Part shown: one piece after another, positions 17,460 through 57,648 of the stretch | Layout of the letters: the number at the start of each line of letters is the position of its first letter | Numbering within the stretch: position 1 is the first letter of the stretch | Source: Minisyncoccota bacterium | GTDB taxonomy: Bacteria; Patescibacteriota; Minisyncoccia; Phycocordibacterales; WO2-35-19 | DNA: 64,000 nucleotides | Assembly (NCBI GenBank): GCA_036517255.1 | Contig: DATDXE010000017.1 | Location: forward strand, 39,599 to 103,598 | Direction: 5' to 3' | The notes under the pieces: model-generated | Database searches by the model: none | Seen by the model: only the letters and a program-made list of their open reading frames with translations | What the model was told of the DNA's origin: nothing | Position numbers and translations under genes: made by a program

Positions 17460-18671
17460 ATGTCAAAAAAAATAGCTAAAACTAAAAAATATAAAAAACT
17501 AAAAACAGCTCGCTTGAAAAAGGTGGTGAAGAAGCCTGCAAAAAAAGCCATAAAGAAAGAGGTAAAATCAAAGAAGCTTAAAAAAGAAGCTCCAGCTCAA
17601 AAGGCAAAGAAGTCAGCTATGGATGCCGGTGCTCTTCGCCTCATAGCCAAAGGTAAGGATAGAGGCTTCATTACCTACGATGAAATATTAAAAGAATTTC
17701 CAACTGTCGAGAATGATGTCATTTTTCTGGAAGGATTGTATGAAAAACTTTCAGGTTCAGGTATCGATGTGCTCGAAGGAGGCGGTCTTTTGGATGAATC
17801 GGCCTCAAACAAAACTCTCGATTATGTAAAAGAAGATGGTACTTATGATTCTATACAGATGTATTTGAAAGAAATTGGTCAACACCAACTCATTACTGGA
17901 GCTATGGAAAAAGAGCTGGCTAAAAGAATTGCTCTTGGCGATCTCGAGGCTAAAAATCTTTTAGCTCGTGCCAACCTGCGACTAGTAGTTTCTATCGCCA
18001 AAAAATATATTGGCCGTTCTGCCGACCTTACTCTCCTCGATCTTATCCAGGAAGGGAACCTGGGGCTTTTCAAAGCGGTTGATAAATTCGATTGGACCAA
18101 GGGTTATAAATTTTCCACCTATGCTACTTGGTGGATTCGACAGGCTATTACTCGTGCTCTTGCCGATCAATCACGCACTATCCGTGTGCCGGTGCATATG
18201 GTTGAAACTATTGCTAAATATAAGCAGGTAGTGAGGAGGCTTTCTCAAGATTTGGGTCGCGATCCACTAGCTGAGGAAATTGCGCTGGAAATGAATATCG
18301 AACCGGAGAAGGTCTATATGATCGAAAAAATCGATCAAGCCACTGTATCCCTTGAGACTCCAGTAGGGGATGAGGAAGACAAGTCGACTTTAGGAGACTT
18401 CATGGCTGATGATAAAATACTTTCTCCTGATCAGGAATCCAATCGTCGCATTATTCGTGACCAACTGATGGAAATTCTAGCCGAGCTTCCGGAAAAAGAG
18501 AGGAGAATTATAGAAATGAGGAACGGCTTAGCCGATGGCATCTATCATACTTTGGAAGATGTGGGTAAAGAGTTTGGGGTTACTCGTGAACGTATCCGTC
18601 AAATCGAAGCCAAAGCTCTGGAAAAAATGCGTCAGCATGAAAAGGCAAACCGTCTTCAGAATTATTTATAA
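17460..18671 (+). CDS. rpoD: RNA polymerase sigma-70 factor with lysine-rich N-terminal tail
   Basis: 403 aa; regions 2-4 (…[40 protein letters not shown]…; …[24 protein letters not shown]…). Confidence 0.9.
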
Positions 18672-18679: not shown

Positions 18680-18708
18680 AGCGGGCGGGCCTTGAGGGTC
18701 CGCCCGCT
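18680..18708. terminator. GC-rich hairpin AGCGGGCGGGCC-ttgagg-GTCCGCCCGCT between convergent rpoD and the minus-strand gene
   Basis: 11-bp stem read directly; belongs to the CCCGCCCG palindrome family. Confidence 0.6.
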
Positions 18709-18711
18709 GTG

Positions 18712-18945
18712 TTACTGCTCGACGACCTCCAATACATCGTCGAACCTGAGGTTTCTGCCGCTGATGCCCGTCCAGAAGTTTCTTCGGGCTAGTTTCAGAA
18801 AGTCGGCTTCTTGACCTGGGGCCAAGCTTACCTCTATCGTCTCGGGGTCGTGGGTCACTATCGTTATTACCCTGAGAGTCCTGACCAAGGCGCTCTCGAT
18901 CTGTTCCTTGTGGGTGCTCCACCCAAATCTGATCTTTAGCCGCAT
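18712..18945 (-). CDS. Hypothetical small protein (78 aa) in higher-GC DNA
   Basis: ATG at 18945 preceded by AGGAGG and a TTGCAA-N16-TATAAT promoter on the minus strand; longer ORF-track frame to 19038 lacks these signals. Confidence 0.4.
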   Translation of the reverse strand: MRLKIRFGWSTHKEQIESALVRTLRVITIVTHDPETIEVSLAPGQEADFLKLARRNFWTGISGRNLRFDDVLEVVEQ

Positions 18946-18967
18946 TGTGTGCTGCCTCCTGACTACT

Positions 18968-19016
18968 ATTATATCATATCTACAGTATTTTGCAAGCAAG
19001 AGCGACGTGCTATAAT
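18968..19016. promoter_or_regulatory. Back-to-back divergent promoters sharing one palindromic -35 hexamer TTGCAA (18990-18995), with -10 TATAAT at 18968-18973 (minus strand) and 19011-19016 (plus strand)
   Basis: Hexamers and spacers (16 and 15 nt) read directly. Confidence 0.4.
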
Positions 19017-19022
19017 CTTTAG

Positions 19023-19883
19023 GTGAAAGAGGCTTCAAAAAATCAAATTCTCCTGATCGTGGCGGCGATAATGTTATTAGCTTTGGTTGGTTGGGGTGGT
19101 TTTAAATTTTATAAAACTGCAGAGAATTTGAAGATGACTAAAGTCGAACTTGCGAGCACTACTGCTGCTCTCCTAACTAAAACATCAGAAGGTGTTGTTC
19201 TTAATGATGCTCTTTATTCAGAACAGCAAAAAAATTCATATTTTGAAAATCAAATAAAAGAAATTGCGGGTACTGTAGGAGTGTTGGACAAACTTTCGAA
19301 AACCGATAAAGAGCTTTTGCAGAAGTATTCCAAAGTATATTTCTTGAACGAACATTATGTACCACAGTCGCTTGCTACGATTACCCCTATATATGTGAAT
19401 GAAGAAAATAGATCGTATAAAATCCACTCAAAAATATTATCTTATTTAGAAAACATGATGCGGGAGGCTGAAGTGGCCAACACTCCTATACGAATCGTCT
19501 CTGCTTATCGCTCATATGATGAGCAGGTAGCATTGAAGGGAAATTATCAATTTACGTATGGCACTGGAGCCAATACCTTTTCTGCCGATCAGGGATACTC
19601 TGAGCATCAACTTGGCACAACTGTTGATTTTACTACAGTGAAATTAGGAGGAAATTTTAACCAGTTTGCTGATACTCTTGGCTATAAATGGCTTTTAGAT
19701 AACGCTTATAAATATGGTTTTATACTTTCGTATCCGGAAAATAATTCTTACTATCAGTTTGAGCCGTGGCATTGGAGGTTCGTTGGTAAAAGTTTGGCTA
19801 TGATGCTTTACGAAGAAAAACAAAACTTCTACGATGTCGATCAGCGCAAAATCGACGCTTATTTAGTAAAAATATTTGATTAA
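19023..19883 (+). CDS. D-alanyl-D-alanine carboxypeptidase, VanY/peptidase M15 family, N-terminal membrane anchor
   Basis: …IRIVSAYRSYDEQVAL… and …SEHQLGTTVDF… zinc-ligand motifs; GTG start 7 nt after the -10. Confidence 0.75.
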   Translation: MKEASKNQILLIVAAIMLLALVGWGGFKFYKTAENLKMTKVELASTTAALLTKTSEGVVLNDALYSEQQKNSYFENQIKEIAGTVGVLDKLSKTDKELLQKYSKVYFLNEHYVPQSLATITPIYVNEENRSYKIHSKILSYLENMMREAEVANTPIRIVSAYRSYDEQVALKGNYQFTYGTGANTFSADQGYSEHQLGTTVDFTTVKLGGNFNQFADTLGYKWLLDNAYKYGFILSYPENNSYYQFEPWHWRFVGKSLAMMLYEEKQNFYDVDQRKIDAYLVKIFD

Positions 19884-19907
19884 TCTTGCGGTATGTATAA
19901 AAACGAT

Positions 19908-19931
19908 GAGCGCGCGGATGGCCGCGCGCTC
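19908..19931. terminator. Perfect hairpin GAGCGCGCGG-atgg-CCGCGCGCTC between convergent genes
   Basis: 10-bp inverted repeat read directly. Confidence 0.55.
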
Positions 19932-20017
19932 TAGCTTGTTTTGGACTCGATAAACTTCTTGAGTCCGAGCTCAACTACTCTGTATTGGAAGTATTCCTCT
20001 TGGGAACCGAGCCACTG

Positions 20018-20458
20018 TTATGCCTCGATTCCTTCGGGGAGCACCTTGTACAGTTGCCGATCGGTCTCTGCCGTTCTTCCCCAGTCACCCTTGTCGTAGT
20101 GTTTTACTACTGCGACAAGAATATCCCAGAATTTCTCGCAGAGGTCTAAGTATCCCAGCCCCTCCAAATCTCTGTCTGGATCATGAGGCATTACCTGGGG
20201 GCTTTTGGGGTTACTTAATGCGCTACGTTCTCGCATGTAGCGCTCGATCAGGCTGGCGGCTCTGGTGGGCGGGACCTTTTCAGGTTCAATCCCGAGAATG
20301 GTTCGGTATAGAGGTGGGTCGTTCGACCAGCATCTCTCTTTACCTTTTTTGTCCCGGTGTTCTCTTATTGCCCACCGGAACTGGACTATAGCGATTTTTG
20401 TCACGGCCTTATCCTTGAGTAGGGGGAGAGCCGCTATATGAGCGTGTGTTAATAGCAT
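20018..20458 (-). CDS. Hypothetical protein (146 aa) in a higher-GC patch
   Basis: Long ORF; opposite-strand ORF translates to Pro/Arg/Leu-rich low-complexity typical of antisense; no family recognised. Confidence 0.4.
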   Translation of the reverse strand: MLLTHAHIAALPLLKDKAVTKIAIVQFRWAIREHRDKKGKERCWSNDPPLYRTILGIEPEKVPPTRAASLIERYMRERSALSNPKSPQVMPHDPDRDLEGLGYLDLCEKFWDILVAVVKHYDKGDWGRTAETDRQLYKVLPEGIEA

Positions 20459-20533
20459 AACCTTCTCCTTCCCGAAGAGTCGGGCAACTTTCTGCCTCTA
20501 GAATAGCAAATTATAATCTACATTGCAATACGT

Positions 20534-20911
20534 TTATTTCCTTTCGTCAAAATCTAAACAGACCGAATTCATGCAAAAACGTTTGCCTGTGGGGGTTGGG
20601 CCGTCTTCAAATATATGGCCCAGGTGCGAGTTGCACTTACTACAAACTACTTCGGTTCTGCTCATGCCGTGTGATTCATCGTGAATCAGATTAACTGAAC
20701 CAGAGAGAGCTTCATCAAAAGAAGGCCAGCCGGTACCTGAATCAAATTTAGTATCCGAAGCAAAAAGTTTATTACCACATACTACACACTTATACATACC
20801 GCTTCTTTTCTCATGCAGCAATTCACCAGTAAACGGCGCTTCCGTCCCTTTCTCCCTCAACACCTTATATTGCTCCTCCGTCAATTTTTTCCTCAATTCT
20901 TCTTCGTCCAT
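20534..20911 (-). CDS. msrB: Peptide-methionine (R)-S-oxide reductase
   Basis: 125 aa; two CxxC pairs and …GWPSF…HLGHIFEDGP… SelR signature. Confidence 0.9.
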   Translation of the reverse strand: MDEEELRKKLTEEQYKVLREKGTEAPFTGELLHEKRSGMYKCVVCGNKLFASDTKFDSGTGWPSFDEALSGSVNLIHDESHGMSRTEVVCSKCNSHLGHIFEDGPTPTGKRFCMNSVCLDFDERK

Positions 20912-20963
20912 ATTTATATTTTAGCAAAATTATACCCCATCCCCGGATGTATTTGATTTTGAT

Positions 20964-21983
20964 TTATCTCTTACTTATGACACTCTTTTTATATACATCT
21001 AAATGTTCCAGAGCGATGCCGGTGCCGAGGGCTACGCAGTAAAGGGCGTCTTTAGCTAGAGCCGCTTTGACCCCGATGCGGCGTAGGACGAGTTCGGGGA
21101 AGTTGCGAAGTTGGGAGGAACCGCCGGTCATGATGATGCCGTAGTCGATAATATCGGCAGAAAGTTCTGGAGGAGTTTCTTGCAGGACATCTTTAATCGC
21201 TTTGATAATATCGCGCAGTTCTTTGCCGATCGCTCTTACTATCTCATTTGTTTTTATTTCTACTGTTCTGGGTAAGCCTGATATCAAGTCCCGACCTTTT
21301 ACATCCATCACTAAATCTTCTTCCAATGGGATAGCCGAACCAATTTTTATCTTTACATCCTCAGCCGTTTTGTCCCCGATAGATAGGTTAAAATTTTTCT
21401 TTATGTAATCGGCGATAGCCTGATCGATTTTGTTCCCAGCACATTTTACAGAGTTGGCTGCGACAATGCCTCCCATGGAAATGACAGCTACGTCAGTTGT
21501 GCCTCCTCCGATGTCGACTATCATGTGACCTCGTGCTTCGTGGATGGGGATACCGGCGCCGATCGCCGCTAGAATCGGCTCTTTTACAACATAGGCATTT
21601 TTGGCTCCAGCTTTTATGGCTGCTTCGATCACCGCTCTGCGTTCAGTCGATGTTACTCCTGCGGGAACTGAAATAAGGACATCAGGTTTTATAAAGGTCC
21701 ATTTACCTAGAGCTTTGTTTATATAATATCGGAGCATGGCTTCTGTTACTCGGTAATCAGCGATGACCCCATCCTTCATCGGCCTGTAGGCGATGACATT
21801 GTCGGGAGTACGCCCAATCATGGTCTTGGCCTCAGCTCCCACAGCTAGTATTTTATTGTCCTGCTCCGATACTGCGACAACTGACGGCTCGTTTAGGACG
21901 ATACCTTTTCCAGGAAGGAAAACGAGGGTATTTGCCGTACCCAAGTCGATGCCGAGCCTTTTATTGAATATGCCCATGTGCAA
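20964..21983 (-). CDS. mreB: Rod shape-determining protein MreB
   Basis: …LGIDLGTANTLVF… phosphate-1 motif and actin-fold motifs throughout. Confidence 0.9.
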   Translation of the reverse strand: MHMGIFNKRLGIDLGTANTLVFLPGKGIVLNEPSVVAVSEQDNKILAVGAEAKTMIGRTPDNVIAYRPMKDGVIADYRVTEAMLRYYINKALGKWTFIKPDVLISVPAGVTSTERRAVIEAAIKAGAKNAYVVKEPILAAIGAGIPIHEARGHMIVDIGGGTTDVAVISMGGIVAANSVKCAGNKIDQAIADYIKKNFNLSIGDKTAEDVKIKIGSAIPLEEDLVMDVKGRDLISGLPRTVEIKTNEIVRAIGKELRDIIKAIKDVLQETPPELSADIIDYGIIMTGGSSQLRNFPELVLRRIGVKAALAKDALYCVALGTGIALEHLDVYKKSVISKR

Positions 21984-22036
21984 GCAATACTACACAAAAT
22001 TGTCGAAAGTCGAAAGTACGTATAGACTTGAAGCAA

Positions 22037-23938
22037 ATGTGGATTATCGAAGTTATCCCAATAAAAAAAGGCTTTGGCAAGGATGGCCTTTCTTACTTCT
22101 CGTCCGTTTCGATGGAAGAAGGGAGTATCGTCAAAATACCTTTAAGAGGTAAAACGGTTTCTGGCATCGTCACTGCTTGCACCCCTGCCGCCAAGGCAAA
22201 GGCCGAATTAAAATCATCCTCTTTTTCTTTGCGGAAAATTTCTAGTATATCGGCTAAGTATTTTTTTGAAGATGAATGGATCGCGGCTGCCAAAAAAACA
22301 GCTAATTTTTTTGCTTATTCTTTAGGTTCGACCATCGCCGCTCTTTCTCCTGTTTCGGTACTTGATAATATTTCAAAATTATCACAGAAGGCAAAAAAGG
22401 ATAAAGTAAAAAGTACAAGTATTAAATTAAAAACAGAAGTACTCTGCATCCAAAGTGAGGATGAGGAACGTTTCGGCCATTATCGGGCCGCTATCCGCGA
22501 AGAGTTTGCTCGAGGTCACTCAGTATTTTTTGTACTCCCTACGATTGAAGATGTTTATGTGGCCGAAGAAGAGTTGCAGAAGGGTATAGCCGATTACACT
22601 TTTTCTTTTCATTCCGATCTCGCTTTTCCCGAAATACTGAAAAGGTCGAAAGCAGTTTCCAAAGTGAAGCATCCGGTTCTCGTGGTCGTGACTCCCCAGT
22701 GGCTCTTTCTTAAAAGGGAGGATCTCGGCACCGTAATTTTAGATAGTGAAAATAGTTCTGGCTGGAAAACTCTGGGCAGGCCGTATCTCGATATGAGGAA
22801 ATTTGCCGAATTTTTCGCCAGAGAAAAAGGAGTGAGGTTTATTTTGGGCGCCGACATCCTACGAGTGGAAACTCTGCATCGATACAAACAGGAGGAAATT
22901 TTTGCCTTCGAATCAGTGAAATTCAGGTTTTCTTCTTTGGCAGAGTCAGCTCTCATTAGTATGGTAGGGAAGGATGTGGAGAAACAGAAGAAGTTTAGGA
23001 CTACTTCGCCCGAACTTATGGCTATGGTCAGTGCTGCTAAGGACGAAAAGAAAAATATATTTATTTACGCTACGCGCAAAGGTCTTTCTCCGATCACGGT
23101 GTGTAGCGATTGCGGGGAAAACGTCGTTTGTCACAATTGCGCTTCTCCTATGGTTCTGTACAAGCGCGCCAGTGTCAATGTTTTTCGTTGTCATCAGTGT
23201 AGTAGCGAAAGGAGTGCAAAAGAAATTTGTAAAAACTGTGCTTCGTGGAGGCTCCAGCCTCTAGGGGTCGGTATAGAAAATATTATTGATGAGATAGAGA
23301 CATCTTTTCCTGAAGTAAATATTTTACAAATTAGTCGGGATGTCGCTACCCAATCCAGAGCTTCGCAGATTGCTGATAAATTTTATAAAACCCCGGGAAC
23401 GATTTTAATAGGGACCGAGATGGCTCTTCACTATTTGCGTCAAGGCCAGGTCGATTTTACGGCTGTAGCTTCGATTGATTCGCTTTTTTCTGTCCCCGAT
23501 TTTAGGATCAGAGAAAAAATATTTCATATTGTGGCCAGAGTGAGGAATCTAGCCCGGGAAGCCTCTATCGTACAGGTGCGCAAGGCTGAGAGGAATACTC
23601 TAGAGCTTGCTTTGAGTGGTAATGTTCTTGATTTTTATAAAATGGAAATTGATGATAGGGAAATTTTACAGTACCCTCCATTTTCAGTATTTATAAAGAT
23701 TACGGTGCGTGGTACTAAAATTACGGTTGAAAAGGAAGCTCATTTCTTAGAAGAATATTTCAGGAAATGGCAGCCGACTATTTTTGACTCTCGTTCCGAG
23801 AGGCGCGATAGTCAAGCTGCCTTAAACTGTGTGTTAAAAGTTCCAAAAACGGATTATCCCGATCCTGATTTAAGCTCTAGGCTCCTCTCTTTGCCTCCTC
23901 AGTTTGAGATCAAAGTCGACCCTGACAATTTATTGTAG
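22037..23938 (+). CDS. priA: Primosomal protein N' (PriA)-like protein with degenerate helicase ATPase motifs
   Basis: PriA N-terminal 3'BD-like start and Cys-rich zinc-binding region CSDCGENVVCHNCASPMV…CHQCSS…CKNCAS; no GxGKT Walker A; DSEN in place of DEEH. Confidence 0.65.
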   Translation: MWIIEVIPIKKGFGKDGLSYFSSVSMEEGSIVKIPLRGKTVSGIVTACTPAAKAKAELKSSSFSLRKISSISAKYFFEDEWIAAAKKTANFFAYSLGSTIAALSPVSVLDNISKLSQKAKKDKVKSTSIKLKTEVLCIQSEDEERFGHYRAAIREEFARGHSVFFVLPTIEDVYVAEEELQKGIADYTFSFHSDLAFPEILKRSKAVSKVKHPVLVVVTPQWLFLKREDLGTVILDSENSSGWKTLGRPYLDMRKFAEFFAREKGVRFILGADILRVETLHRYKQEEIFAFESVKFRFSSLAESALISMVGKDVEKQKKFRTTSPELMAMVSAAKDEKKNIFIYATRKGLSPITVCSDCGENVVCHNCASPMVLYKRASVNVFRCHQCSSERSAKEICKNCASWRLQPLGVGIENIIDEIETSFPEVNILQISRDVATQSRASQIADKFYKTPGTILIGTEMALHYLRQGQVDFTAVASIDSLFSVPDFRIREKIFHIVARVRNLAREASIVQVRKAERNTLELALSGNVLDFYKMEIDDREILQYPPFSVFIKITVRGTKITVEKEAHFLEEYFRKWQPTIFDSRSERRDSQAALNCVLKVPKTDYPDPDLSSRLLSLPPQFEIKVDPDNLL

Positions 23939-23956
23939 AAATGTTAGATTTTAAGC

Positions 23957-24487
23957 ATGGACGAAATTATCCAGAAGGAGAACCCTATTTTAAGGAAAAA
24001 ATCAGAGGAAGTGTTGGTAGGTGATATTCCTTCTAAGAAGATTCAAAAAATTATAGCTTCGATGAAAGAAGCTCTCGAGAGCCAGGAGGATGGGGTGGCT
24101 ATCGCCGCTCCTCAAATAGGCAAGAACCTAAGAATTTTTGTTATGTCTAAAAGGGTATTTGATCTTGTCGGTACTAAGCCCCAAGTTGACAAGCCCTTTG
24201 GAGACGCTGTTTTTGTTAATCCTAAAATTACCAAGTTATCACGAAAAAAAATAGAACAAGATGAGGGTTGTCTCTCGGTCCGGTATTTGTACGGTAAAGT
24301 AATGAGAGCCGAGAAAGCTACTATAGAGGCATATGATGAATGCGGTAAGAAGTTTGTTTCCGGAGGTTCGGGGTTGGTCGCTCAAATATTTCAGCACGAG
24401 TGTGACCATCTCGATGGAGTTCTTTTTATCGACAAAGCAAAGGATCTGCAAGAAATTCCTCCCGAAGTAGAAAAACCACTGAAATGA
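23957..24487 (+). CDS. def: Peptide deformylase
   Basis: …GVAIAAPQIG…, …EGCLSV…, …HECDHLDG… three PDF motifs. Confidence 0.9.
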   Translation: MDEIIQKENPILRKKSEEVLVGDIPSKKIQKIIASMKEALESQEDGVAIAAPQIGKNLRIFVMSKRVFDLVGTKPQVDKPFGDAVFVNPKITKLSRKKIEQDEGCLSVRYLYGKVMRAEKATIEAYDECGKKFVSGGSGLVAQIFQHECDHLDGVLFIDKAKDLQEIPPEVEKPLK

Positions 24488-25410
24488 AATTTGTATTTTT
24501 TGGATCAAGCCAGTTTTCTGTTTATGTTCTCGAAGAGCTAGAAAAATCTAGTGTTTTGCCGAGTCTTATCGTCACTGTTCCAGACAAACCCAAAGGTAGG
24601 AAATTGATTTTGACTGCGAATGTGGTGAAAACTTGGGCACAAGAAAAAAATATCCCAGTCATTACAGAAATTAATAAAGAAAAATTGAAAGCCGAAAATG
24701 CGGATTTCTTTTTGGTAGCAGCTTATGGCAAGATTTTGAAAAAAGAGATTTTTGATATCCCAAAATTTAAAACTCTCAACATCCATCCTTCTCTCCTCCC
24801 CAAATATCGCGGAGCTTCGCCTATGATTTCTCAGATTCTAAATGATGCCGGAGGTCCCGAGAGTAGCGAGGGAATGGGCACTTCTATTATGCTGATTGAC
24901 GAAGGGATAGATACCGGGCCGATATTATCACAACGTAAAATTGTATTTGGTATTCCTCCACCTGCTAAGGAAGGAGGCCCGCCCGAAACGACTGTTTCAG
25001 TCGGGCGGGTGGCCGAAGAGCCGGAGGGGGTTTTTAATAGAAGTGAGGTATTAGATATCGAGGAATTAGAACTTTTGATGGCCAAAGGAAGTGTTGATTT
25101 ATTTGTAGAAATTATAGAAGATTATTTGAACGAAAAAATTGAACCTAAACCTCAAAATAATGCTGACGCCACTTACTGTCATAAAATCAGAAAAGAAGAT
25201 GGGCTTTTGGATTTGGAGGGAGATGCTCGTAAGAATCTTTTAAAAATCAAAGCGTTTGCAGTTTGGCCTCGCACTTATTTTATAAAAAATGGTAAAAGAA
25301 TAATCGTCACAGATGCTAGGGTTGAAGATAATAAACTGGAAATTATCCGTGTTATTCCTGAAGGCAAAAAAGAAATGCCCTACGAGGACTTTTTGAGAGG
25401 AAACATGTAA
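24484..25410 (+). CDS. fmt: Methionyl-tRNA formyltransferase, with a ~40-aa insertion in the catalytic-domain region
   Basis: …NIHPSLLPKYRGASP… formyltransferase motif; overlaps def stop (ATGA); insertion GIPPPAKEGGPPETTVSVGRVAEEPEG coded by GC-rich palindromic DNA. Confidence 0.85.
   Translation: MKFVFFGSSQFSVYVLEELEKSSVLPSLIVTVPDKPKGRKLILTANVVKTWAQEKNIPVITEINKEKLKAENADFFLVAAYGKILKKEIFDIPKFKTLNIHPSLLPKYRGASPMISQILNDAGGPESSEGMGTSIMLIDEGIDTGPILSQRKIVFGIPPPAKEGGPPETTVSVGRVAEEPEGVFNRSEVLDIEELELLMAKGSVDLFVEIIEDYLNEKIEPKPQNNADATYCHKIRKEDGLLDLEGDARKNLLKIKAFAVWPRTYFIKNGKRIIVTDARVEDNKLEIIRVIPEGKKEMPYEDFLRGNM
24976..25014. repeat. GC-rich palindrome GGCCCGCCCGA-N14-TCGGGCGGGTGGCC lying in-frame inside fmt
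   Basis: 9-bp perfect inverted repeat read directly; same core as 18680-18708 and 27954-27991. Confidence 0.5.
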
Positions 25411-25429
25411 AATTAAAGAAATATAAAAA

Positions 25430-27538
25430 ATGTATCTCAAGTCTTTAGAAATATCAGGTTTTAAGAGCTTTGCTAAGAAAAGTAGTCTTGATTTCAAGTC
25501 GGCTGTAACAGCGATTGTCGGTCCTAATGGAAGTGGTAAGAGTAATGTGGCCGAAGCCTTTCGGTTTGTGCTGGGGGAACAGTCTATAAAAAGCATGAGA
25601 GGCAAAAAAGGTGAAGATTTGATTTGGAATGGTAGTGAGGAACAGCCGCGGGCTAACAGAGCTCTAGTCAAAGCGATTTTCGATAATAAAAAAAAGATTT
25701 TTAATTTAGATTTTGATGAAGTGAGTATCGAAAGAGTAGTTAACCGCGATGGTGTTAATGAGTATTCTATAAACGGTACTCAAGTTCGTCTGAAAGATGT
25801 TTTAGAGCTTTTGGCGGGAGCCCATGTTGGCGCTTCTGGCCATCATATTATTTCTCAGGGAGAGGCGGACAGGATTTTGACATCTAGTATCAAGGAGAGA
25901 AGATCCATGATAGAGGATGCTCTGGGACTAAAAGTTTATCAGTATAAAAGAGTCGAGAGTGAACGCAAACTTGAAAAAACTTTTGAAAATATTTCTCAAG
26001 TGGAGTCTCTCCGTAGGGAAATAGCTCCCCATCTACGATTTCTGAAGAAGCAAATGGAAAAAATCGATAAAGCATTGGAAGTAAAGGATGGACTTACGCA
26101 GATATACAGGGAATATTTAAAAAGGGAAAGTGTTTTTATCGAGTATGAAAAAGCAAACTTAGCTCTTGAGAAAAAACCTTTATTTGAAAGGCAGGAGAGT
26201 CTGAAAAAAAATACTGAAAATCATAAAATATTTGAGATAGAAGCTAATATAAAAAAAGAGAGACAGGAGAAGGACACTCTCTCTCGAGAGGCAGGCAGGT
26301 TGGAAGGTGAGATAGCAGCCAGTCAAAAATTGATTGATAAAACAAGACGAGAAATAAATGAGAGAGAAAATATTACCATTTCTATAAAAGAAATTGAAAA
26401 ATTGTTTCAAGAAATTGAGATAGTGAATGAGATAGTAGAGATAAAAAAGATAATAAGGGGGTTTCTTGATAGTAAAAGGGTCATAAACGGAGAGTCTCTC
26501 TTGAAAGAGGCCGAGGAATCGGTACTAGATTTAAAAAGGAGGAAGGAAGAAATAGAACGACAAATCCAAGAAAAAGAATCAAACATCAGAAATCTAGAAA
26601 GTTTGGAAAGAGAAGTTTTACAACTTTCTTCTCAGGCTGATGTTATCAAATCCCAAATTGAATCTCTTCATAATAAAGAAGAGAGATTACGCGCCATTGA
26701 GGGGGATTTCTTGCGTGAAGTAGAGGAGGCTAGTGTGCTTTTAGGTGTTGCTGTTACTGGATTTAATAATCTTGATATTAGTCGAGAACAAATATTAGGT
26801 GAAGAACGAAAAGTTCAAGAAGAAAGGAGGAGGGAAGTAGAGAGGATGAAAATACGATTGGAAGAGCTCGGGGCCTCTGGAGGTGAGGATACAGTAAAAG
26901 AATTTAGAGAAGCAACTGAGAGAGATGCTTTTTTGGAACGGGAACTTGCTGATCTTTATAAATCATCTGATTCTTTGAAAACGATGATAGCCGAATTGCA
27001 AGATAGGCTTAATACAGAATTTAATCAAGGTATAAGCAAAATAAACTCAGCTTTTCAAAACTTCTTTGAATTAATGTTTGGCGGGGGAACCGCTCGTCTT
27101 GAACTTGTCCAAGAAAAAAGCCAAGTTGAGGGAGATTTGGAAGAAGGCTTTGCCCCGAGAAACTCGATCGAAGAGAAGAGCGAAGTGGGGATAGAGATAG
27201 ATGTTTCGCTACCCAAGAAGCGTATACGAGGTCTCAATATGCTCTCGGGAGGGGAAAGGGCTCTTACTTCTATTGCTTTGCTTTTTGCCATGTCCCAGGT
27301 CAATCCACCTCCATTTATTATTTTAGACGAAACCGATGCTGCACTGGACGAAGCAAATTCTAGAAAATACGGTGATATGATAGCTGCTCTTTCTAAGTAT
27401 TCTCAGCTCATCCTCATCACTCACAACCGCGAAACTATGTCCCGTGCTGGTGTCATTTACGGCGTCACTATGGGCAGCTCTGGCATCTCCAAACTTCTCT
27501 CCATCGAATTTGCTGAAGCTGTCGCGGTGGCGAAGTAA
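25430..27538 (+). CDS. smc: SMC-family ATPase, short (702 aa), no recognisable hinge domain
   Basis: N-terminal …FKSFAKKSSLDFKSAVTAIVGPNGSGKSNVAEAFRFVLGEQS…; C-terminal …LSGGERALTSIALLFAM…ILDETDAALDEAN…ITHNRETMSRAGVIYGVTM; coiled-coil middle. Confidence 0.7.
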   Translation: MYLKSLEISGFKSFAKKSSLDFKSAVTAIVGPNGSGKSNVAEAFRFVLGEQSIKSMRGKKGEDLIWNGSEEQPRANRALVKAIFDNKKKIFNLDFDEVSIERVVNRDGVNEYSINGTQVRLKDVLELLAGAHVGASGHHIISQGEADRILTSSIKERRSMIEDALGLKVYQYKRVESERKLEKTFENISQVESLRREIAPHLRFLKKQMEKIDKALEVKDGLTQIYREYLKRESVFIEYEKANLALEKKPLFERQESLKKNTENHKIFEIEANIKKERQEKDTLSREAGRLEGEIAASQKLIDKTRREINERENITISIKEIEKLFQEIEIVNEIVEIKKIIRGFLDSKRVINGESLLKEAEESVLDLKRRKEEIERQIQEKESNIRNLESLEREVLQLSSQADVIKSQIESLHNKEERLRAIEGDFLREVEEASVLLGVAVTGFNNLDISREQILGEERKVQEERRREVERMKIRLEELGASGGEDTVKEFREATERDAFLERELADLYKSSDSLKTMIAELQDRLNTEFNQGISKINSAFQNFFELMFGGGTARLELVQEKSQVEGDLEEGFAPRNSIEEKSEVGIEIDVSLPKKRIRGLNMLSGGERALTSIALLFAMSQVNPPPFIILDETDAALDEANSRKYGDMIAALSKYSQLILITHNRETMSRAGVIYGVTMGSSGISKLLSIEFAEAVAVAK

Positions 27539-27555
27539 ATGATAGTCTGTAAGAA

Positions 27556-29229
27556 ATGTCACCTATTCGTTTTGAGATAGAAAAGAAAATCCCAAATTCC
27601 CTCGGGCGGGCCGGTAGGTTGAGTACACCTCATGGAGATATTTTGACTCCTGCTTTTGTAGCAGTCGGAACGAAAGGGACAGTGAAATCGCTTACTCCAG
27701 AAGAGATAAGAGAAGCGGGAAGTCAGGTCGTGCTTGCAAATACTTATCATCTCTATCTGCAGCCAGGGGATAAGATAATTAAAGAGGCAGGAGGATTACA
27801 TAAATTTATGAATTGGGGTGGCCCCACTTTCACTGATTCTGGCGGTTTCCAAGCTTTCTCTCTCGGTGTAGCTTATGGTAACGGGATAGGGAAGTTTATA
27901 GCCGCAAATGAACCTGATCAGGAGATAATGGAAAGATTGAAAGAAGAAAATAAGCCCGCCCGCCTCGATAACGAGAGCGTTTCGGGCGGGGAAAAATTAG
28001 CAGAAAGAAAATCGAAGGTAACAGAAGAAGGAGTGGAATTTGTATCAGTGCTCGATGGCAGTAAACATTTTATGTCACCGGAAGACTCTATAAGAATTCA
28101 GAATGACATTGGAGCTGATATGATATTTGCTCTGGACGAATTTACTTCTCCTCATGCCGATCACGCAAAGATAAAAGCGACTATTGAAAGGACAGAAAGA
28201 TGGGCGAAGAGGTGTTTGGAGGCGCATAAGAAGGGCCTCACCCCCGACCCCTCTCCCAAGGAGAGGGGGGATCGCTTCGGTTGGGATACTGCGATTAAGC
28301 TTAAGTTTAGGAACTTACAGGAGCAAGCACTTTTATTTAGAAAGAACCCAACAGAAGCTGAAAAGATTTTATGGGAGCGTTTGAGAGGCAATTTCAATGG
28401 TCTTCATTTTAGGAGACAACATGTTGTGGGACATTTTATAGTAGATTTTGTGTGTTTGGCTAATGGATTAGTCATTGAAGTTGATGGTGATATTCACGAT
28501 GATCAAGTAGAGAGAGATCAAGAAAGGACAAATTTCTTAGAACAATCCGGTTTTAAAGTTGTTAGATTCAGAAATGAAGAAGTTCTGAATAATGTCGACG
28601 TTGTTATAAAACAGATTATCGGCATTTTGAAAGCCCTCCCCTTGGGGGAGGGTTTGGGAGGGGCCTCTTCCCAAGCTCTCTTCGGCATCGTCCAGGGCGG
28701 TCGGCATGAGGATTTGCGCAAGCAGTCGGCCAAGTCGATCGGTAATATGGATTTCGATGGTTTTGGTATTGGCGGTACTTTCGTGAAAGAAGATATGGCG
28801 ACGGCAGTGCATTGGGTAAACGAAGTTTTGCCAGAAGAAAAACCACGACACCTTCTCGGGGTGGGGGAGCCTGTGGATTTAATTTTAGGCGTGGAAGAAG
28901 GTTGTGATACTTTCGATTGTGTTGCTCCCACCCGTATTGCTCGCAACGGTACTCTTTATACTCGCAACGGAAAAATAAATATTACAAACGCAAAATACAG
29001 TAATTTTTTTGAGCCGATAGAAAAGGGTTGTGGCTGTTATACTTGCAAGAATTATACGTGTGCTTATGTGTCGCACTTATTTCGGGCTAAAGAAATGCTT
29101 GCGGCCACTCTCGCTAGTATCCACAATCTCTATTTTTTGAATAATCTCATGACTGAAATTCGGCAGAGCATTCTAGATGGTAAATTTACTGAATTAAAAG
29201 AAGAATTTTTAGGTAAGTATAAATCTTAA
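27556..29229 (+). CDS. tgt: Queuine tRNA-ribosyltransferase (tRNA-guanine transglycosylase) carrying an in-frame ~145-aa DUF559 endonuclease-like insertion
   Basis: Tgt N-terminal block (…LTPAFVAVGTKGTVKSL…LANTYHLYLQPG…FTDSGGFQ…), central …ALFGIVQGG…FDGFGIGG…, C-terminal Zn site CGCYTCKNYTCAYVSHL; inserted segment matches the DUF559 signature. Confidence 0.8.
   Translation: MSPIRFEIEKKIPNSLGRAGRLSTPHGDILTPAFVAVGTKGTVKSLTPEEIREAGSQVVLANTYHLYLQPGDKIIKEAGGLHKFMNWGGPTFTDSGGFQAFSLGVAYGNGIGKFIAANEPDQEIMERLKEENKPARLDNESVSGGEKLAERKSKVTEEGVEFVSVLDGSKHFMSPEDSIRIQNDIGADMIFALDEFTSPHADHAKIKATIERTERWAKRCLEAHKKGLTPDPSPKERGDRFGWDTAIKLKFRNLQEQALLFRKNPTEAEKILWERLRGNFNGLHFRRQHVVGHFIVDFVCLANGLVIEVDGDIHDDQVERDQERTNFLEQSGFKVVRFRNEEVLNNVDVVIKQIIGILKALPLGEGLGGASSQALFGIVQGGRHEDLRKQSAKSIGNMDFDGFGIGGTFVKEDMATAVHWVNEVLPEEKPRHLLGVGEPVDLILGVEEGCDTFDCVAPTRIARNGTLYTRNGKINITNAKYSNFFEPIEKGCGCYTCKNYTCAYVSHLFRAKEMLAATLASIHNLYFLNNLMTEIRQSILDGKFTELKEEFLGKYKS
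27954..27991. repeat. GC-rich palindrome GCCCGCCCG-N20-CGGGCGGGG lying in-frame in the tgt 5' region
   Basis: Read directly; encodes …KPARLDNESVSGGEK…. Confidence 0.45.
28232..28672 (+). mobile_element. DUF559 (Vsr/restriction-endonuclease-like) domain insertion inside tgt, bounded by GC-rich hairpins (28248-28268 CCCCTCTCC/GAGAGGGG; 28634-28652 CCCTCCC/GGGAGGG)
   Basis: …EAEKILWERLRGNFNGLHFRRQHVVGHFIVDFVCLANGLVIEVDGDIHD…RDQERTNFLEQSGFKVVRFRNEEV… is the DUF559 signature; visibly GC-richer than flanks; reading frame of tgt preserved. Confidence 0.55.
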
Positions 29230-40978: not shown

Positions 40979-40983
40979 TTTTT

Positions 40984-47463: not shown

Positions 47464-47473
47464 ATTAACCAAT

Positions 47474-52211: not shown

Positions 52212-52241
52212 TTGTGTAGGAGTAACTCTCCAGCACACCAA

Positions 52242-52265
52242 GGGCCGCGCGGCAACGCGCGGCCC
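52242..52265. terminator. Perfect hairpin GGGCCGCGCG-gcaa-CGCGCGGCCC between convergent genes
   Basis: 10-bp inverted repeat read directly. Confidence 0.55.
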
Positions 52266-53560
52266 TATTTCGTATTCAAAAACTCCACCGCTCTCTCTAG
52301 TACCCTGTCCTTACCAGAAGCTACATCTTCCGCCGTATTTTTTATTTCTATTTTAGGCAACAGGCCCCCATTTGATATCGAGTTACCGAGCGGGGTGAGC
52401 CAGTGAGCGATAGTCACTTTAAGTGATGTGTCCCCTGTTATATCGACGAGTTCCTGCACCGAACCTTTCCCAAATGTTTTTTCACCGATAAGAACGGCTT
52501 TGCCGTGCTCACTCAAAGCTCCAGCCAAAATTTCGGAAGCTGAGGCTGAACCGCCATTTACTAGGATGACAAATTTCAAATTTTTGTTGAATATATCGTA
52601 ACCATAACTCCTATGTTCTACATTTTCTCTCTTACCTCCAAAATCTTCCGACACGATTATCTCTCCAGTTGGCAGGAACCAGCTTGCCATCGATACTGCC
52701 GCTTCCAAGTAACCTCCTGGATTATTGCGTAAATCCAAGATTAATTTATCTGAACCTGATTCGACGAATTGTCGGAGAGCTTGTCTGAACAAATTTGCTG
52801 AATTTTCGGAGAAGCTGAAAAGTTGTATGAGGTAGGCTCCGCTTGGAAGTTTTTTGTAATCAATAGTTGGGATGTTGATCGTATCGCGAACTATACTTTT
52901 TACTAGTGGTTCTTTCACTCCGTCCCGAGCGAAAGTGATAGTGACAGCAGTTCCCTGCTCTCCTCTTATGAGTGAAATAGCTTCTTCGGTCGACATTTTC
53001 ACTGCGTTGGTGTCGCCTATCTGCAATATTTTATCGCCCGCTTTTACTCCAGCTTTCTCCGCTGGAGTATCTTTGAGTGGAGCGATGACAGTCAGGATGC
53101 CGCTTTGTGAAGCGATTTCCATACCTACTCCACTAAACGAACCTCTTATTTCTTCGGCAAACATTTTTGATTCGACTGGAGGAAAGAAAACAGTGTAAGG
53201 GTCGCCATAAGCGGAGGCCAAACCTTCGATCGCTCCCCAAACTTTTTTGTCGGAGGTTAGAGCAGTCGTGTTGGTACTTGTCGAAGATACAAATTTTTCT
53301 TCGAGTACCCTCCAAGTTTCCCAAAATGGATCAAAATTTACATCAGCTATTTCGCTCTCTGGAACTCCGCCTATGTTTATGACAGCTCTTTTTTCTTCTT
53401 TCCCTTTTCCAAAATAAAAACCAGCGCCAAATATGAGGCCGATCAAAGCTATGGAAACAAATGTCTGGGTCAGGGTGCCCTTGTATGTGGATAAAGGCGA
53501 GGCGGTAAATTTCTCTTTAATATTGAACATTGATACAATTGTATCAAAGTGATCACTCAT
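52265..53560 (-). CDS. ctpA: Carboxyl-terminal processing protease (peptidase S41) with PDZ domain and N-terminal membrane anchor
   Basis: PDZ …GVKAGDKILQIGD… and …LILDLRNNPGGYL… S41 motif; start placed at ATG 53560 (ORF-track start 53674 also possible). Confidence 0.75.
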   Translation of the reverse strand: MSDHFDTIVSMFNIKEKFTASPLSTYKGTLTQTFVSIALIGLIFGAGFYFGKGKEEKRAVINIGGVPESEIADVNFDPFWETWRVLEEKFVSSTSTNTTALTSDKKVWGAIEGLASAYGDPYTVFFPPVESKMFAEEIRGSFSGVGMEIASQSGILTVIAPLKDTPAEKAGVKAGDKILQIGDTNAVKMSTEEAISLIRGEQGTAVTITFARDGVKEPLVKSIVRDTINIPTIDYKKLPSGAYLIQLFSFSENSANLFRQALRQFVESGSDKLILDLRNNPGGYLEAAVSMASWFLPTGEIIVSEDFGGKRENVEHRSYGYDIFNKNLKFVILVNGGSASASEILAGALSEHGKAVLIGEKTFGKGSVQELVDITGDTSLKVTIAHWLTPLGNSISNGGLLPKIEIKNTAEDVASGKDRVLERAVEFLNTK

Positions 53561-57617: not shown

Positions 57618-57648
57618 CAGCGGTCGGAGTGTGATGCTCCGACCGCTG
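57618..57648 (+). terminator. Perfect hairpin CAGCGGTCGGAG-tgtgatg-CTCCGACCGCTG
   Basis: 12-bp inverted repeat read directly. Confidence 0.55.

What the first reader, a model, noticed from the sequence alone, without database searches (positions are those of the whole stretch)
18680..27991. Second, GC-rich palindrome family (CCCGCCCG…CGGGCGGG) used as terminator and inserted in-frame in fmt and tgt
Copies at 18680-18708 (rpoD terminator), 24976-25014 (inside fmt, part of a ~40-aa Pro/Glu/Gly-rich insertion absent from typical Fmt) and 27954-27991 (inside the tgt 5' region, coding …KPARLDNESVSGGEK…). In an AT-rich genome these GC hairpins stand out and again preserve reading frames, suggesting a second mobile palindrome class. 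Three further perfect GC hairpins at 19908-19931, 52242-52265 and 57618-57648 have different stem sequences.
Basis: seen in the sequence. Interest (0 to 1): 0.55.

Follow-up and report, generated by a model that had tools for sequence, protein, structure and literature searches.

The report
Tiny mobile GC hairpin inside genes
Two of the three reported GC-rich hairpins, those inside the fmt and tgt genes, are copies of a 27-48-base hairpin element that is widespread in uncultured bacteria. It slips precisely into protein-coding genes and appears to be read through as a short floppy loop. The third hairpin, after rpoD, is an ordinary hairpin between two genes.

Summary
All three hairpins exist at the stated coordinates and are far beyond chance. 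They are not one family.

**The fmt and tgt copies are family members.**
- The fmt copy (24978-25009) and the tgt copy (27955-27990) belong to a sequence-conserved element, CCYGCCCGAC-[variable stem-loop]-GTCGTTCGGGCGGG.
- It occurs in either orientation and in frame in housekeeping genes such as gyrA, secA, recG, murD and iscU.
- It also occurs nested inside itself and inside orphan tRNA fragments.
- One filled/empty pair shows an exact 36-nt insertion with no target duplication.
- 78% of distinct sequences have lengths that are multiples of three.

**In the window, both copies are lineage-specific.**
- The tgt insert is absent from 29 aligned orthologs.
- The fmt insert lies in a hypervariable hotspot.
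- Both inserts fall in segments that AlphaFold2 predicts to be disordered.

**The rpoD-downstream hairpin (18680-18708) is not a member.** Its arm order is opposite, it gives no covariance-model match, and it sits between two convergent stop codons.

**Best reading:** a REP/RPE-like miniature mobile hairpin in a candidate-phyla-radiation (CPR) bacterium, a new variant of a known kind. The mobilising enzyme is unknown. Small GIY-YIG nuclease genes are its only recurrent neighbour.

The parts
24978..25009 (-). Element copy in fmt. On the minus strand it reads CCCGCCCGACTGAAACAGTCGTTTCGGGCGGG (32 nt), which is the element's reference orientation, so it is antisense to fmt. It is translated as about GPPETTVSVGRV (Fmt residues 165-176).
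   Evidence: The covariance model built from 35 metagenome copies scores 36.1 bits, E = 8e-6, on the minus strand. An identical 32-mer occurs in metagenome locus L141 and a near-identical one in L118. The RNA fold is -21 to -23.5 kcal/mol, z about -3.3.
27955..27990 (+). Divergent element copy in tgt (36 nt), sense to the gene. It is translated as PARLDNESVSGG (Tgt residues 134-145).
   Evidence: The covariance model scores 21 bits, E = 0.02, from the outer stem only. It shares the 13-mer CGTTTCGGGCGGG, including the rare extra T, with the fmt copy. It has the same K-P-A-R-L...S-G-G reading frame as copies in IscU (L011), MurD (L146) and RecG (L097). It is absent from 29 aligned orthologs.
24946..25056 (+). 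Hypervariable insertion hotspot of Fmt (residues about 155-191). It contains the element plus older GC-rich material, for example CCTCC...GGAGG at 24955-24977.
   Evidence: In alignment A1, 8 of 24 orthologs have no insert here and the others carry unrelated Pro/Gly/Glu-rich inserts. At least 12 related genomes carry perfect C-first hairpins at the same spot. In the AlphaFold2 model, pLDDT is 43-55 for residues 161-190 and below 50 for 172-186.
27946..27996 (+). 17-residue segment of Tgt (ENKPARLDNESVSGGEK) that is specific to this lineage and surrounds the element.
   Evidence: It is unique to this protein among 30 aligned Tgt sequences. It is predicted disordered, with pLDDT below 50 for residues 127-151.
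18680..18708 (+). G-first hairpin in the 40-nt gap between the rpoD stop codon (18669-18671) and the stop of a convergent 77-aa ORF (18712-18945). It is not a member of the element family. It is probably a transcript-end hairpin.
   Evidence: The arm order is opposite. There is no covariance-model match at E <= 10. The plus-strand RNA folds better than the minus strand (-30.2 versus -22 kcal/mol), through G-U pairs. There is no U-tract and the terminator scan does not call it. It does not recur elsewhere.
19908..19931 (.). Unrelated perfect GC hairpin between convergent genes. It looks like a terminator on both strands.
52241..52266 (.). Unrelated perfect GC hairpin between convergent genes.
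57618..57648 (.). Unrelated perfect intergenic hairpin.
28248..28268 (+). C-first hairpin CCCCTCTCC-CAA-GGAGAGGGG ('PSPKERG'), the left linker of the DUF559 insertion in tgt. It belongs to a different hairpin family of the same class.
   Evidence: It is predicted disordered.
28634..28652 (+). C-first hairpin CCCTCCCC-TTG-GGGGAGGG ('PLGEGLGG'), the right linker of the DUF559 insertion in tgt.
   Evidence: It is predicted disordered.
24484..25410 (+). fmt (methionyl-tRNA formyltransferase), a host gene.
27556..29229 (+). tgt (tRNA-guanine transglycosylase), a host gene. It also carries an in-frame DUF559 domain.

Best explanation
The fmt and tgt hairpins are copies of a miniature, non-autonomous mobile element.

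**What the element is**
- It is a 27-48-nt (mostly 30 or 36 nt) GC-rich imperfect palindrome.
- Its consensus is CCYGCCCGAC-[variable stem-loop]-GTCGTTCGGGCGGG.
- It has a 7-9-bp G/C outer stem, an inner stem that begins GAC/GTC, and a conserved 4-nt asymmetric bulge.

**What it does**
- It inserts precisely, without duplicating its target, in either orientation.
- It survives only where it is tolerated. Such places are permissive surface loops of proteins, orphan tRNA fragments, loops of other hairpins (including its own) and intergenic DNA.
- Its stems are pure G/C, 4 of its 6 frames are stop-free, and most copies are a multiple of three long. It can therefore sit inside essential genes of a gene-dense genome and be translated as 9-16 extra disordered residues.

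**In this window**
- It adds about 12 residues to a hypervariable loop of Fmt (antisense copy).
- It adds 12 residues to a lineage-specific loop of Tgt (sense copy).
- The rpoD-downstream hairpin is a separate, ordinary hairpin between convergent genes.

**Shown:** family membership, lineage-specific presence, the in-frame state, predicted disorder, one exact insertion without target duplication, nesting, and the 3n length bias.

**Inferred:** mobility itself, translation of the inserts, and the mechanism. I think the most likely mechanism is recognition of the single-stranded hairpin by a nuclease or transposase acting in trans, as for REP elements and their RAYT transposases. The small GIY-YIG nuclease is the only candidate seen so far.
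For: **Family and spread**
These were 121 non-redundant instances in contigs of 27-60% GC, nearly all with different flanks.
- It also gave 5 viral contigs.
- A covariance-model search of 1.3 Mb of unbiased Patescibacteria loci found 7 sites in 7 species. A pattern search added two more species.
- The model scores the fmt copy at 36.1 bits (E = 8e-6) and the tgt copy at 21 bits (E = 0.02).

**Structure**
- The inner stem shows compensatory changes: pair 11-22 is UA in 22 sequences and CG in 9, and pair 13-20 is AU in 17 and GC in 7. In total 19 cells changed on both sides, and 0 of 500 shuffles reached that number.

**Insertions in genes**
- Copies lie in frame in IscU, IscS and HPF.
- Copies lie in frame in RecG, UvrD, GyrA, SecA, PurL, MurD, PheS, ATP synthase gamma and others.
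- 42 of 45 copies inside long ORFs are a multiple of three long.
- 72 of 92 distinct sequences are a multiple of three long.
- Both orientations occur, 27 sense and 18 antisense.

**Precision and nesting**
- In L209, an orphan tRNA fragment can be compared with the intact tRNA copy in the same locus. The insertion is exactly 36 nt, with no target-site duplication.
- A GyrA carries a nested copy, KPARPD[PARQNHSGG]GRSGGD.
- Some copies lie inside the loops of other hairpins, and some are tandem.

**The window copies**
- The tgt insert is unique among 30 orthologs.
- The fmt insert lies in a hotspot where orthologs have either nothing or unrelated hairpins.
- Both inserts are predicted disordered.
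- The sequence is identical in at least 10 independently assembled contigs, so it is not an assembly artefact.
Against: - No empty-site allele of fmt or tgt was found. All near-identical contigs and all cluster members carry the inserts. Mobility in this genome is therefore inferred from comparisons across genomes.
- Only 2 copies occur in about 83 kb of this genome, which is far sparser than classical REPs.
- No transposase, RAYT or GIY-YIG gene is present in the window or its flanks.
- The tgt copy matches the family only through its outer stem and 3' core, so its membership is less certain.
- The metagenome set was selected with a pattern that fixes the outer stem and the 3' core. Conservation of those parts is therefore partly by construction.
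- Translation of the inserts has not been shown.
Confidence: 0.75

Rival explanations
1. The hairpins are not independently mobile. They are the ends or leftover footprints of small nuclease-gene cassettes (GIY-YIG or DUF559 homing-type cassettes), which insert and are later lost, leaving one or two hairpins behind.
For: - The DUF559 domain in tgt is bracketed by two C-first hairpins, in the window and in 14 orthologs.
- One ortholog (P0144) has only a hairpin-like 'PPEGRGLGW' peptide at the DUF559 site.
- GIY-YIG ORFs are the only recurrent neighbour of the element, in 12 of about 115 loci against 2 of 80 background loci. They are often within 100 nt and sometimes have a copy on both sides, as in L114 and L205.
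- GIY-YIG genes in the background loci L051 and L066 also have GC hairpins next to them.
Against: - About 90% of element copies have no nuclease gene within the fetched DNA.
- Position and orientation relative to the GIY-YIG gene vary.
- The L209 insertion is an exact 36-nt addition to an otherwise unchanged sequence.
- Nested copies are easier to explain by insertion of the hairpin itself.
- The hairpins that flank DUF559 belong to other sequence families.
- The association with GIY-YIG may arise only because both occur near tRNA genes.
Confidence: 0.12
2. The intragenic hairpins are functional RNA structures selected in place, for example to stabilise the mRNA or to pause ribosomes between folding units. 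Their similarity would then reflect convergent or conserved function rather than mobility.
For: - The folds are stable, -21 to -24 kcal/mol with z about -3.
- The inner stem shows compensatory changes.
- T-G wobble variants always lie on the same strand of the element.
- The fmt insert lies after the last strand of the N-terminal domain.
Against: - The element is absent from most orthologs of every host gene examined.
- It occurs antisense as often as would be expected (18 of 45), including in fmt itself.
- It occurs in orphan tRNA fragments, inside other hairpins and in tandem.
- Near-identical sequence in unrelated genes of very divergent genomes does not fit evolution in place.
Confidence: 0.08
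3. One reading: all three hairpins, including the rpoD terminator, are one palindrome family of this genome. Members would serve as terminators when intergenic and be tolerated when intragenic.
For: The octamer CGGGCGGG/CCCGCCCG is shared by all three. Some family members elsewhere are intergenic.
Against: - The arm order is opposite, and no strand choice can reconcile it.
- The covariance model gives no match.
- Copy 1 lacks the inner GAC...GTCGTT core.
- No G-first relatives occur in about 2.1 Mb of other loci.
Confidence: 0.04
4. The hairpins are a chance, compositional or assembly artefact.
For: G/C-only stems carry little information. The sequence comes from a metagenome-assembled genome.
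Against: - Shuffles give 0.00 expected matches.
- The sequence is identical in at least 10 independent contigs from ENA, JGI and Logan assemblies.
- A conserved 27-base core is found at more than 120 other sites.
Confidence: 0.01

Closest known systems
REP elements (repetitive extragenic palindromes), including the intragenic REPs described by Di Nocera et al. 2013 (PMC3733652)
   Same: - REPs are 20-40-nt GC-rich imperfect palindromes dispersed in the genome. They are sometimes clustered or in tandem.
- That paper reports REPs located entirely inside ORFs, encoding extra residues. Many of these are in repair and tRNA-related genes.
- This matches the host spectrum here: uvrD, recG, gyrA, tgt, fmt and pheS.
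   Different: - There is no terminal GTAG or CGTC tag.
- The outer stem is pure G/C with the C-rich arm first.
- Copy number per genome is low, 2 in about 83 kb.
- Most recognisable copies are a multiple of three long, and many are intragenic.
- No RAYT gene was found nearby.
- The same sequence is shared by very divergent genomes instead of being specific to a species.
Rickettsia palindromic elements (RPE-1 to RPE-8). From my own knowledge: Ogata et al. 2000. RPE-4 and RPE-6 are mentioned in PMC3733652.
   Same: These are selfish palindromic DNA inserted in frame into protein-coding genes of a reduced genome. They are translated as extra peptide segments at permissive sites.
   Different: RPE-1 is about 100-150 bp and AT-richer, and RPEs are restricted to Rickettsia. 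This element is three to five times smaller, is GC-rich, and is spread across many uncultured lineages.
GC clusters of yeast mitochondrial DNA, including the optional in-frame cluster in var1, and the 'byp' elements of Magnusiomyces (from my own knowledge; not checked here)
   Same: These are about 30-50-nt GC-rich palindromic mobile elements in an AT-richer genome. Some lie inside coding sequence.
   Different: They are in a eukaryotic organelle. The byp elements are skipped by the ribosome, whereas the 3n bias here argues for plain translation. No sequence relationship was tested.
MITEs, for example the Coxiella QMITEs (PMC5896051) and Correia elements
   Same: They are non-autonomous small repeats that can land in ORFs and add peptides.
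   Different: MITEs have terminal inverted repeats, create target-site duplications and are 50-500 bp long. Here there is no duplication and the whole element is a single 27-48-nt hairpin.
Intrinsic (Rho-independent) terminators. This comparison concerns only the hairpin at 18680-18708.
   Same: It is a stable GC hairpin starting 9 nt after the rpoD stop codon, between convergent genes.
   Different: There is no U-tract on either strand and the loop is 11 nt, so the consensus scan does not call it.

Membership tests
CCYGCCCGAC...GTCGTTCGGGCGGG hairpin element (family defined here) | C-rich arm first; outer stem CCYGCCC(GA)/(TC)GGGCGGG | tested here: met
   Met by the fmt copy (24978-25009) and the tgt copy (27955-27990). 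Not met by 18680-18708, which has the G-rich arm first.
CCYGCCCGAC...GTCGTTCGGGCGGG hairpin element (family defined here) | Conserved inner core GAC...GTCGTT(T), scored with a covariance model | tested here: met
   The fmt copy scores 36.1 bits, E = 8e-6, on the minus strand. The tgt copy scores 21 bits, E = 0.02, and has only ...GCGTTT of the core, so it is a divergent member. 18680-18708 gives no match at E <= 10.
CCYGCCCGAC...GTCGTTCGGGCGGG hairpin element (family defined here) | Presence or absence relative to orthologous sites | tested here: met
   The tgt insert is absent from 29 of 29 other aligned orthologs. The fmt insert lies in a hotspot that is empty in 8 of 24 orthologs. No empty allele was found within the same species.
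REP (repetitive extragenic palindrome) | 20-40-nt GC-rich imperfect palindrome | tested here: met
   The copies are 27-48 nt, with a 7-9-bp G/C stem and an asymmetric bulge.
REP (repetitive extragenic palindrome) | Unpaired terminal GTAG or CGTC tag | tested here: not met
   The element's ends are CCYG... and ...CGGG. The flanks show no conserved tetranucleotide. The family definitions are taken from PMC3733652.
REP (repetitive extragenic palindrome) | High copy number per genome and mainly extragenic location | tested here: not met
   There are 2 copies in about 83 kb, and both are intragenic. At least 45 of 121 metagenome copies lie inside long ORFs. The whole genome was not available.
REP (repetitive extragenic palindrome) | Associated RAYT (Y1 transposase) gene flanked by the repeats | tested here: not met
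   There is none in the window or its flanks. No recurrent transposase cluster appears among 2651 ORFs of the element-bearing loci; only GIY-YIG recurs. Complete genomes were not searched.
Rickettsia palindromic elements (RPE) | In-frame insertion into ORFs, translated as an extra peptide | tested here: inconclusive
   The in-frame state and the 3n bias are shown. Translation itself was not tested.
Rickettsia palindromic elements (RPE) | About 100-150-bp element of Rickettsia, with sequence homology to RPE families | tested here: not met
   The size is 27-48 nt and the host is Candidatus Paceibacterota. Size and host already exclude membership. Sequence homology to RPEs was not compared.
MITE | Terminal inverted repeats plus a target-site duplication | tested here: not met
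   The L209 filled/empty comparison shows an exact 36-nt insertion with no duplication.
Intrinsic terminator (hairpin 18680-18708 only) | GC-rich stem-loop directly followed by a U-tract at the 3' end of a gene | tested here: not met
   The hairpin is present and starts 9 nt after the rpoD stop codon. There is no T-run within 2 nt on either strand, and the scan does not call it. Function as a hairpin that protects the transcript's 3' end remains possible.
Known RNA families (Rfam 15) | Match above the gathering score | tested here: not met
   No Rfam family matches at any of the hairpins in the window or in L006, L007 and L059.

The most novel reading that the evidence does not exclude
Candidate-phyla-radiation bacteria may host a system analogous to REP elements and their RAYT transposases, built on different enzymes.
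- Tiny C-first GC hairpins would be the cis-acting substrates of small stand-alone nucleases: GIY-YIG, and DUF559/Vsr-like for a sister hairpin family.
- The hairpins would have evolved to be a multiple of three long and free of stop codons so that they can live inside the coding sequences of extremely gene-dense genomes.
- The same nucleases would build the '[orphan tRNA fragment + hairpin]-[nuclease ORF]-[intact tRNA]' cassettes and the in-frame DUF559 insertion in tgt.
Probability: 0.2. Interest if true: 0.8.

Novelty: new variant of a known kind. Interest (0 to 1): 0.6.

Why it matters
If this reading is right, an element only 27-48 nt long colonises essential genes of streamlined, uncultured bacteria. 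The invaded genes include fmt, tgt, gyrA, secA, recG and murD. The element is shared almost unchanged between very divergent genomes.

This matters in four ways:
- It extends selfish DNA inside coding sequence, known from Rickettsia, to the candidate phyla radiation.
- It explains part of the odd Pro/Gly/Glu/Arg-rich inserts in proteins of these bacteria. Those inserts confuse alignment, annotation and structure prediction.
- It gives a marker for permissive loops in conserved enzymes.
- It offers a well-defined substrate for finding out how hairpin elements that make no target duplication are moved, with GIY-YIG as a concrete candidate.

Tried and rejected
- **Hairpins as junctions of tandem tRNA genes with the same acceptor stem.** ARAGORN finds no tRNA there. 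Excising the element does not restore a tRNA across the junction. The tRNA-like flanks turned out to be orphan 5' tRNA fragments.
- **A known RNA family.** Rfam gives no match.
- **Strain polymorphism with an empty site.** All contigs are 100% identical, and all cluster members carry the inserts.
- **More copies just outside the window.** There are none in about 19 kb of flanks. Single half-sites at 27603, 42201, 52147 and 57241 are not degenerate copies.
- **A transposase or RAYT near the copies.** None is in the window, and none recurs in 120 loci.
- **Canonical terminator status for 18680-18708.** The scan does not call it.
- **A nuclease domain in the large Fmt inserts of P0039, P0049 and P0053.** By eye, these inserts show no nuclease-like sequence and look like a further repeat family, 'NFDSSSLKGSH..QNFH'. 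That motif is also seen at the Tgt hotspot of P0135. No domain scan was run on them.
- **Literature.** A full-text search for the element's sequence found no paper. Searches on CPR or Patescibacteria combined with palindromic or in-frame found nothing specific.
- **Choosing one inner fold.** Two mutually exclusive registers both pair well: CUGAA/UUCAG with a 3' bulge, and GAACGAC/GUCGUUC with a 5' bulge. Only the first shows changes on both sides of a pair, but the 3' side of the second was fixed by my search pattern.
Full report
**Source and setting.** The window is 42% GC. Its Fmt and Tgt proteins are identical to proteins that NCBI names as from a Candidatus Paceibacterota metagenome-assembled genome, a member of the Patescibacteria or candidate phyla radiation (CPR). 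The same DNA is 100% identical (one contig, L089, 99.99%) in at least 10 independently assembled contigs from ENA, JGI and Logan. The hairpins are therefore not assembly artefacts. The nearest other species share only about 50-60% Fmt identity.

**Check of the observation.**
- 18680-18708: AGCGGGCGG-11 nt-CCGCCCGCT.
- 24978-25009: CCCGCCCGA-14 nt-TCGGGCGGG.
- 27955-27990: CCCGCCCG-20 nt-CGGGCGGG.

They are well beyond chance. The pattern CCCGCCCG-N4-30-CGGGCGGG occurs twice, against 0.00 in shuffles. The window has 16 perfect GC-rich stems of at least 8 bp, against about 1 expected. The hairpins lie at the 99.4th to 99.9th percentile of local GC content. One detail changes the picture. Arm order is the same on both strands of a palindrome. 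Copy 1 has the G-rich arm first and copies 2 and 3 have the C-rich arm first, so copy 1 cannot be the same element in any orientation.

**The two intragenic copies are lineage-specific insertions.**
- *Tgt.* In an alignment of 30 Tgt orthologs, the 17 residues ENKPARLDNESVSGGEK are unique to this protein. The hairpin itself encodes PARLDNESVSGG, residues 134-145.
- *Fmt.* In an alignment of 25 Fmt orthologs, the hairpin lies in a hypervariable hotspot at residues about 155-191. Eight orthologs have nothing there. The rest carry unrelated Pro/Gly/Glu-rich inserts.
- *DNA level.* At least 12 related genomes have perfect C-first hairpins of other sequence at exactly this Fmt hotspot, such as CCCCTCTCCTT-N3-AAGGAGAGGGG.
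- *Predicted structure.* AlphaFold2 models place both inserts in low-confidence coil. In Fmt, pLDDT is 43-55 over residues 161-190 and below 50 for 172-186, in a model with mean pLDDT 84. In Tgt, pLDDT is below 50 for residues 127-151.

**The copies belong to a widespread, sequence-conserved element.** Reading the fmt copy on the minus strand gives CCCGCCCGACTGAAACAGTCGTTTCGGGCGGG.
- *Related genomes.* Elements from other Patescibacteria (L007, L059, L011, L033, L027, L022, L009, L006) share the stems and also the loop-proximal bases.
It gave at least 120 stretches and 121 non-redundant instances, in contigs of 27-60% GC with almost all flanks different. It also gave 5 viral contigs.
- *Consensus.* The element reads CCYGCCCGAC-[variable stem-loop]-GTCGTTCGGGCGGG and is 27-48 nt long, with peaks at 36, 30 and 27 nt.
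- *Structure.* The inner stem shows compensatory changes, for example CUGAA/UUCAG against CCGGA/UCCGG. Nineteen cells changed on both sides, and 0 of 500 shuffles reached that number. A second register also pairs well, so the exact inner fold is unresolved.
- *Scores for the window copies.* A covariance model built from the 36-nt class scores the fmt copy at 36.1 bits (E = 8e-6, minus strand). It scores the tgt copy at 21 bits (E = 0.02, outer stem only). It gives nothing for the rpoD hairpin even at E <= 10.
- *The tgt copy is a divergent member.* It shares the 13-mer CGTTTCGGGCGGG, with a rare extra T, with the fmt copy. It also has the same K-P-A-R-L...S-G-G frame as copies in IscU, MurD and RecG of other genomes.
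- *Density.* In 1.3 Mb of unbiased Patescibacteria loci the model finds 7 sites in 7 species. In about 83 kb of this genome there are 2.

**Behaviour of the element.**
- *Genes invaded.* It lies in frame in many housekeeping genes: IscU, IscS, HPF, RecG, UvrD, GyrA, SecA, PurL, MurD, PheS, ATP synthase gamma and thioredoxin reductase.
- *Orientation.* Both orientations occur, 27 sense and 18 antisense.
- *Length.* Of 45 copies inside long ORFs, 42 are a multiple of three long. Of 92 distinct sequences, 72 are. A hairpin that grows by whole base pairs should have lengths 30, 32, 34 and 36 about equally, but 32 and 34 are rare. Selection at the coding level has therefore shaped the family. This also argues that the inserts are translated and not spliced out.
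- *Stop codons.* By my reading of the consensus, four of its six frames are stop-free.
- *Precision.* Locus L209 carries an orphan 5' tRNA fragment and an intact copy of the same tRNA. The two differ by exactly the 36-nt element, with no target-site duplication.
- *Nesting and clustering.* A GyrA carries one copy nested inside another, KPARPD[PARQNHSGG]GRSGGD. Other copies lie in the loops of unrelated hairpins, in tandem, or next to variant hairpins.
- *Flanks.* Flanking bases show only weak, mutually complementary preferences.

**How it most likely works.** The anatomy is a short imperfect palindrome with a conserved asymmetric bulge. It inserts exactly, without duplication, in both orientations, and can nest in hairpin loops. 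This points to a non-autonomous element handled as a single-stranded hairpin by a protein acting in trans. That is the model established for REP elements and RAYT transposases and for IS200/IS605 (from my own knowledge, and PMC3733652). This step is inferred.

No transposase is encoded in the window or its flanks. None recurs near the 120 metagenome copies. The only recurrent neighbour is a small GIY-YIG nuclease (Pfam PF01541, E = 5e-13). It occurs in 12 of about 115 loci against 2 of 80 background loci, and often lies within 100 nt of the element. These genes sit in tRNA arrays, so the link could be indirect. Within the host proteins the insert is most simply a neutral, disordered surface loop.

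**The rpoD hairpin and the other three.** The hairpin at 18680-18708 fills the 40-nt gap between the rpoD stop codon and the stop of a convergent 77-aa ORF.
- It folds better as plus-strand RNA (-30.2 against -22 kcal/mol), thanks to G-U pairs.
- It lacks a U-tract and the terminator scan does not call it.
- No G-first relative occurs in about 2.1 Mb of other loci.
- It belongs with the hairpins at 19908, 52241 and 57618. These are unrelated intergenic stems, two of them between convergent genes and one terminator-like on both strands.

**Comparison with what is known.**
- *REPs.* Intragenic REPs are documented, with RPE-4 and RPE-6 of R. conorii counted among them. They are notably found in repair and tRNA-related genes (PMC3733652). 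The principle is therefore not new.
- *How this family differs from REPs.* It has no GTAG or CGTC tag, a pure G/C C-first stem, low copy number per genome, predominantly 3n lengths, no RAYT, and the same sequence in very divergent genomes.
- *How it differs from RPE-1.* It is several-fold smaller and GC-rich.
- *How it differs from MITEs.* It has no terminal inverted repeats and no target duplication.
- *Prior description.* A full-text search for the element's sequence found no paper, and Rfam has no matching family.
- *Classification.* I file it as a new variant of a known kind.

**Limits.**
- The metagenome set was selected with a pattern that fixes the outer stem and the 3' core.
- The whole genome was not available.
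- No empty allele was found in this species.
- Translation and mobility are inferred.
- The taxonomic range beyond Patescibacteria is unknown.

Noticed in passing
window 28240-28680 (inside tgt, 27556-29229): A complete DUF559/Vsr-like PD-(D/E)XK endonuclease domain (PF04480, E = 1e-34) is inserted in frame into Tgt. It is bracketed by two perfect C-first hairpins, at 28248-28268 and 28634-28652. The same insertion at the same site occurs in 14 orthologs that are 64-73% identical. AlphaFold2 folds the domain confidently (pLDDT 72-92) with both hairpin-coded linkers disordered. It looks like a homing-endonuclease-type insertion with no intein or intron.
   Followed up: partly
L209 5533-5929; L051 ~11700-12100; L066 ~9540-10000; L059 12333-12489; L007 14600-14720; L027 13600-13754: A recurrent cassette occurs at tRNA genes of Patescibacteria: [orphan 5' tRNA fragment with a GC hairpin inserted at tRNA position 9|10 or 21|22]-[small GIY-YIG nuclease ORF, sometimes missing]-[intact tRNA]. 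The hairpin differs between loci. It is the CCCGCCCGAC element in some, and CCTGCCTG-CCGG-CAGGCAGG or TCCGCCAG-CTGGCGGA in others.
   Followed up: partly
window 183-209, 30562-30617 (inside uvrB), 40927-40981, 47473-47516: A different palindrome family with core TACCAAGGGTCACCCTTGGTA. One copy is in frame in uvrB ('GSPLAGALGPKVTLGNQ').
   Followed up: no
L004-L083, Fmt hotspot (locus coordinates about 10460-10620); also L022 17699, L011 16856: A second, more abundant class of C-first hairpins (CCCCTCTCCTT-N3-6-AAGGAGAGGGG, CCCTCCCCT-N3-5-AGGGGAGGG) lies in frame in fmt, tgt and iscS of many Patescibacteria. They encode 'PSPxxGEG' or 'PLSxxRRG' motifs. Across the loci and the window, C-first GC hairpins outnumber G-first ones 74 to 16, and 64 to 18 in the related loci alone under a second criterion.
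   Followed up: partly
proteins P0039, P0049, P0053 (Fmt) and P0135, P0138, P0141, P0151, P0152, P0154 (Tgt): Further repeated peptide-coding inserts, 'NFDSSSLKGSH..QNFH' and 'LEQPGYFSAEKSP.S.ASR', occupy the same Fmt and Tgt hotspots in other genomes. This suggests additional mini-element families that use the same permissive loops.
   Followed up: no
L115 (GyrA ORF): One element copy is nested inside another, KPARPD[PARQNHSGG]GRSGGD. The same GyrA has a further copy about 360 residues downstream.
   Followed up: partly
L099, L102, L108, L113, L133, L189 (flanks of the element): Several metagenome copies sit inside arrays of short tandem repeats, such as TTGAAAT-like, GGTTCCT-like and CTTGTCC-like units.
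   Followed up: no
L007 15021-15299: A group I intron (Rfam RF00028, 62 bits) lies downstream of an interrupted tRNA-like 5' half, next to the hairpin-bearing orphan fragment.
   Followed up: no
window 14875-15249: A gene for a 23S rRNA intervening-sequence protein (PF05635, E = 3.5e-35) lies between rpoC and dnaG.
   Followed up: no
L084 versus L085 (8904-9122), and L089 versus L087 (beyond 12000): Assemblies of the same population differ just outside the window. The hicA toxin gene is called as 39 aa in one and 72 aa in the other. The gene content after the right flank also differs: NifU_N in L089, unnamed ORFs in L087 and L088.
   Followed up: no
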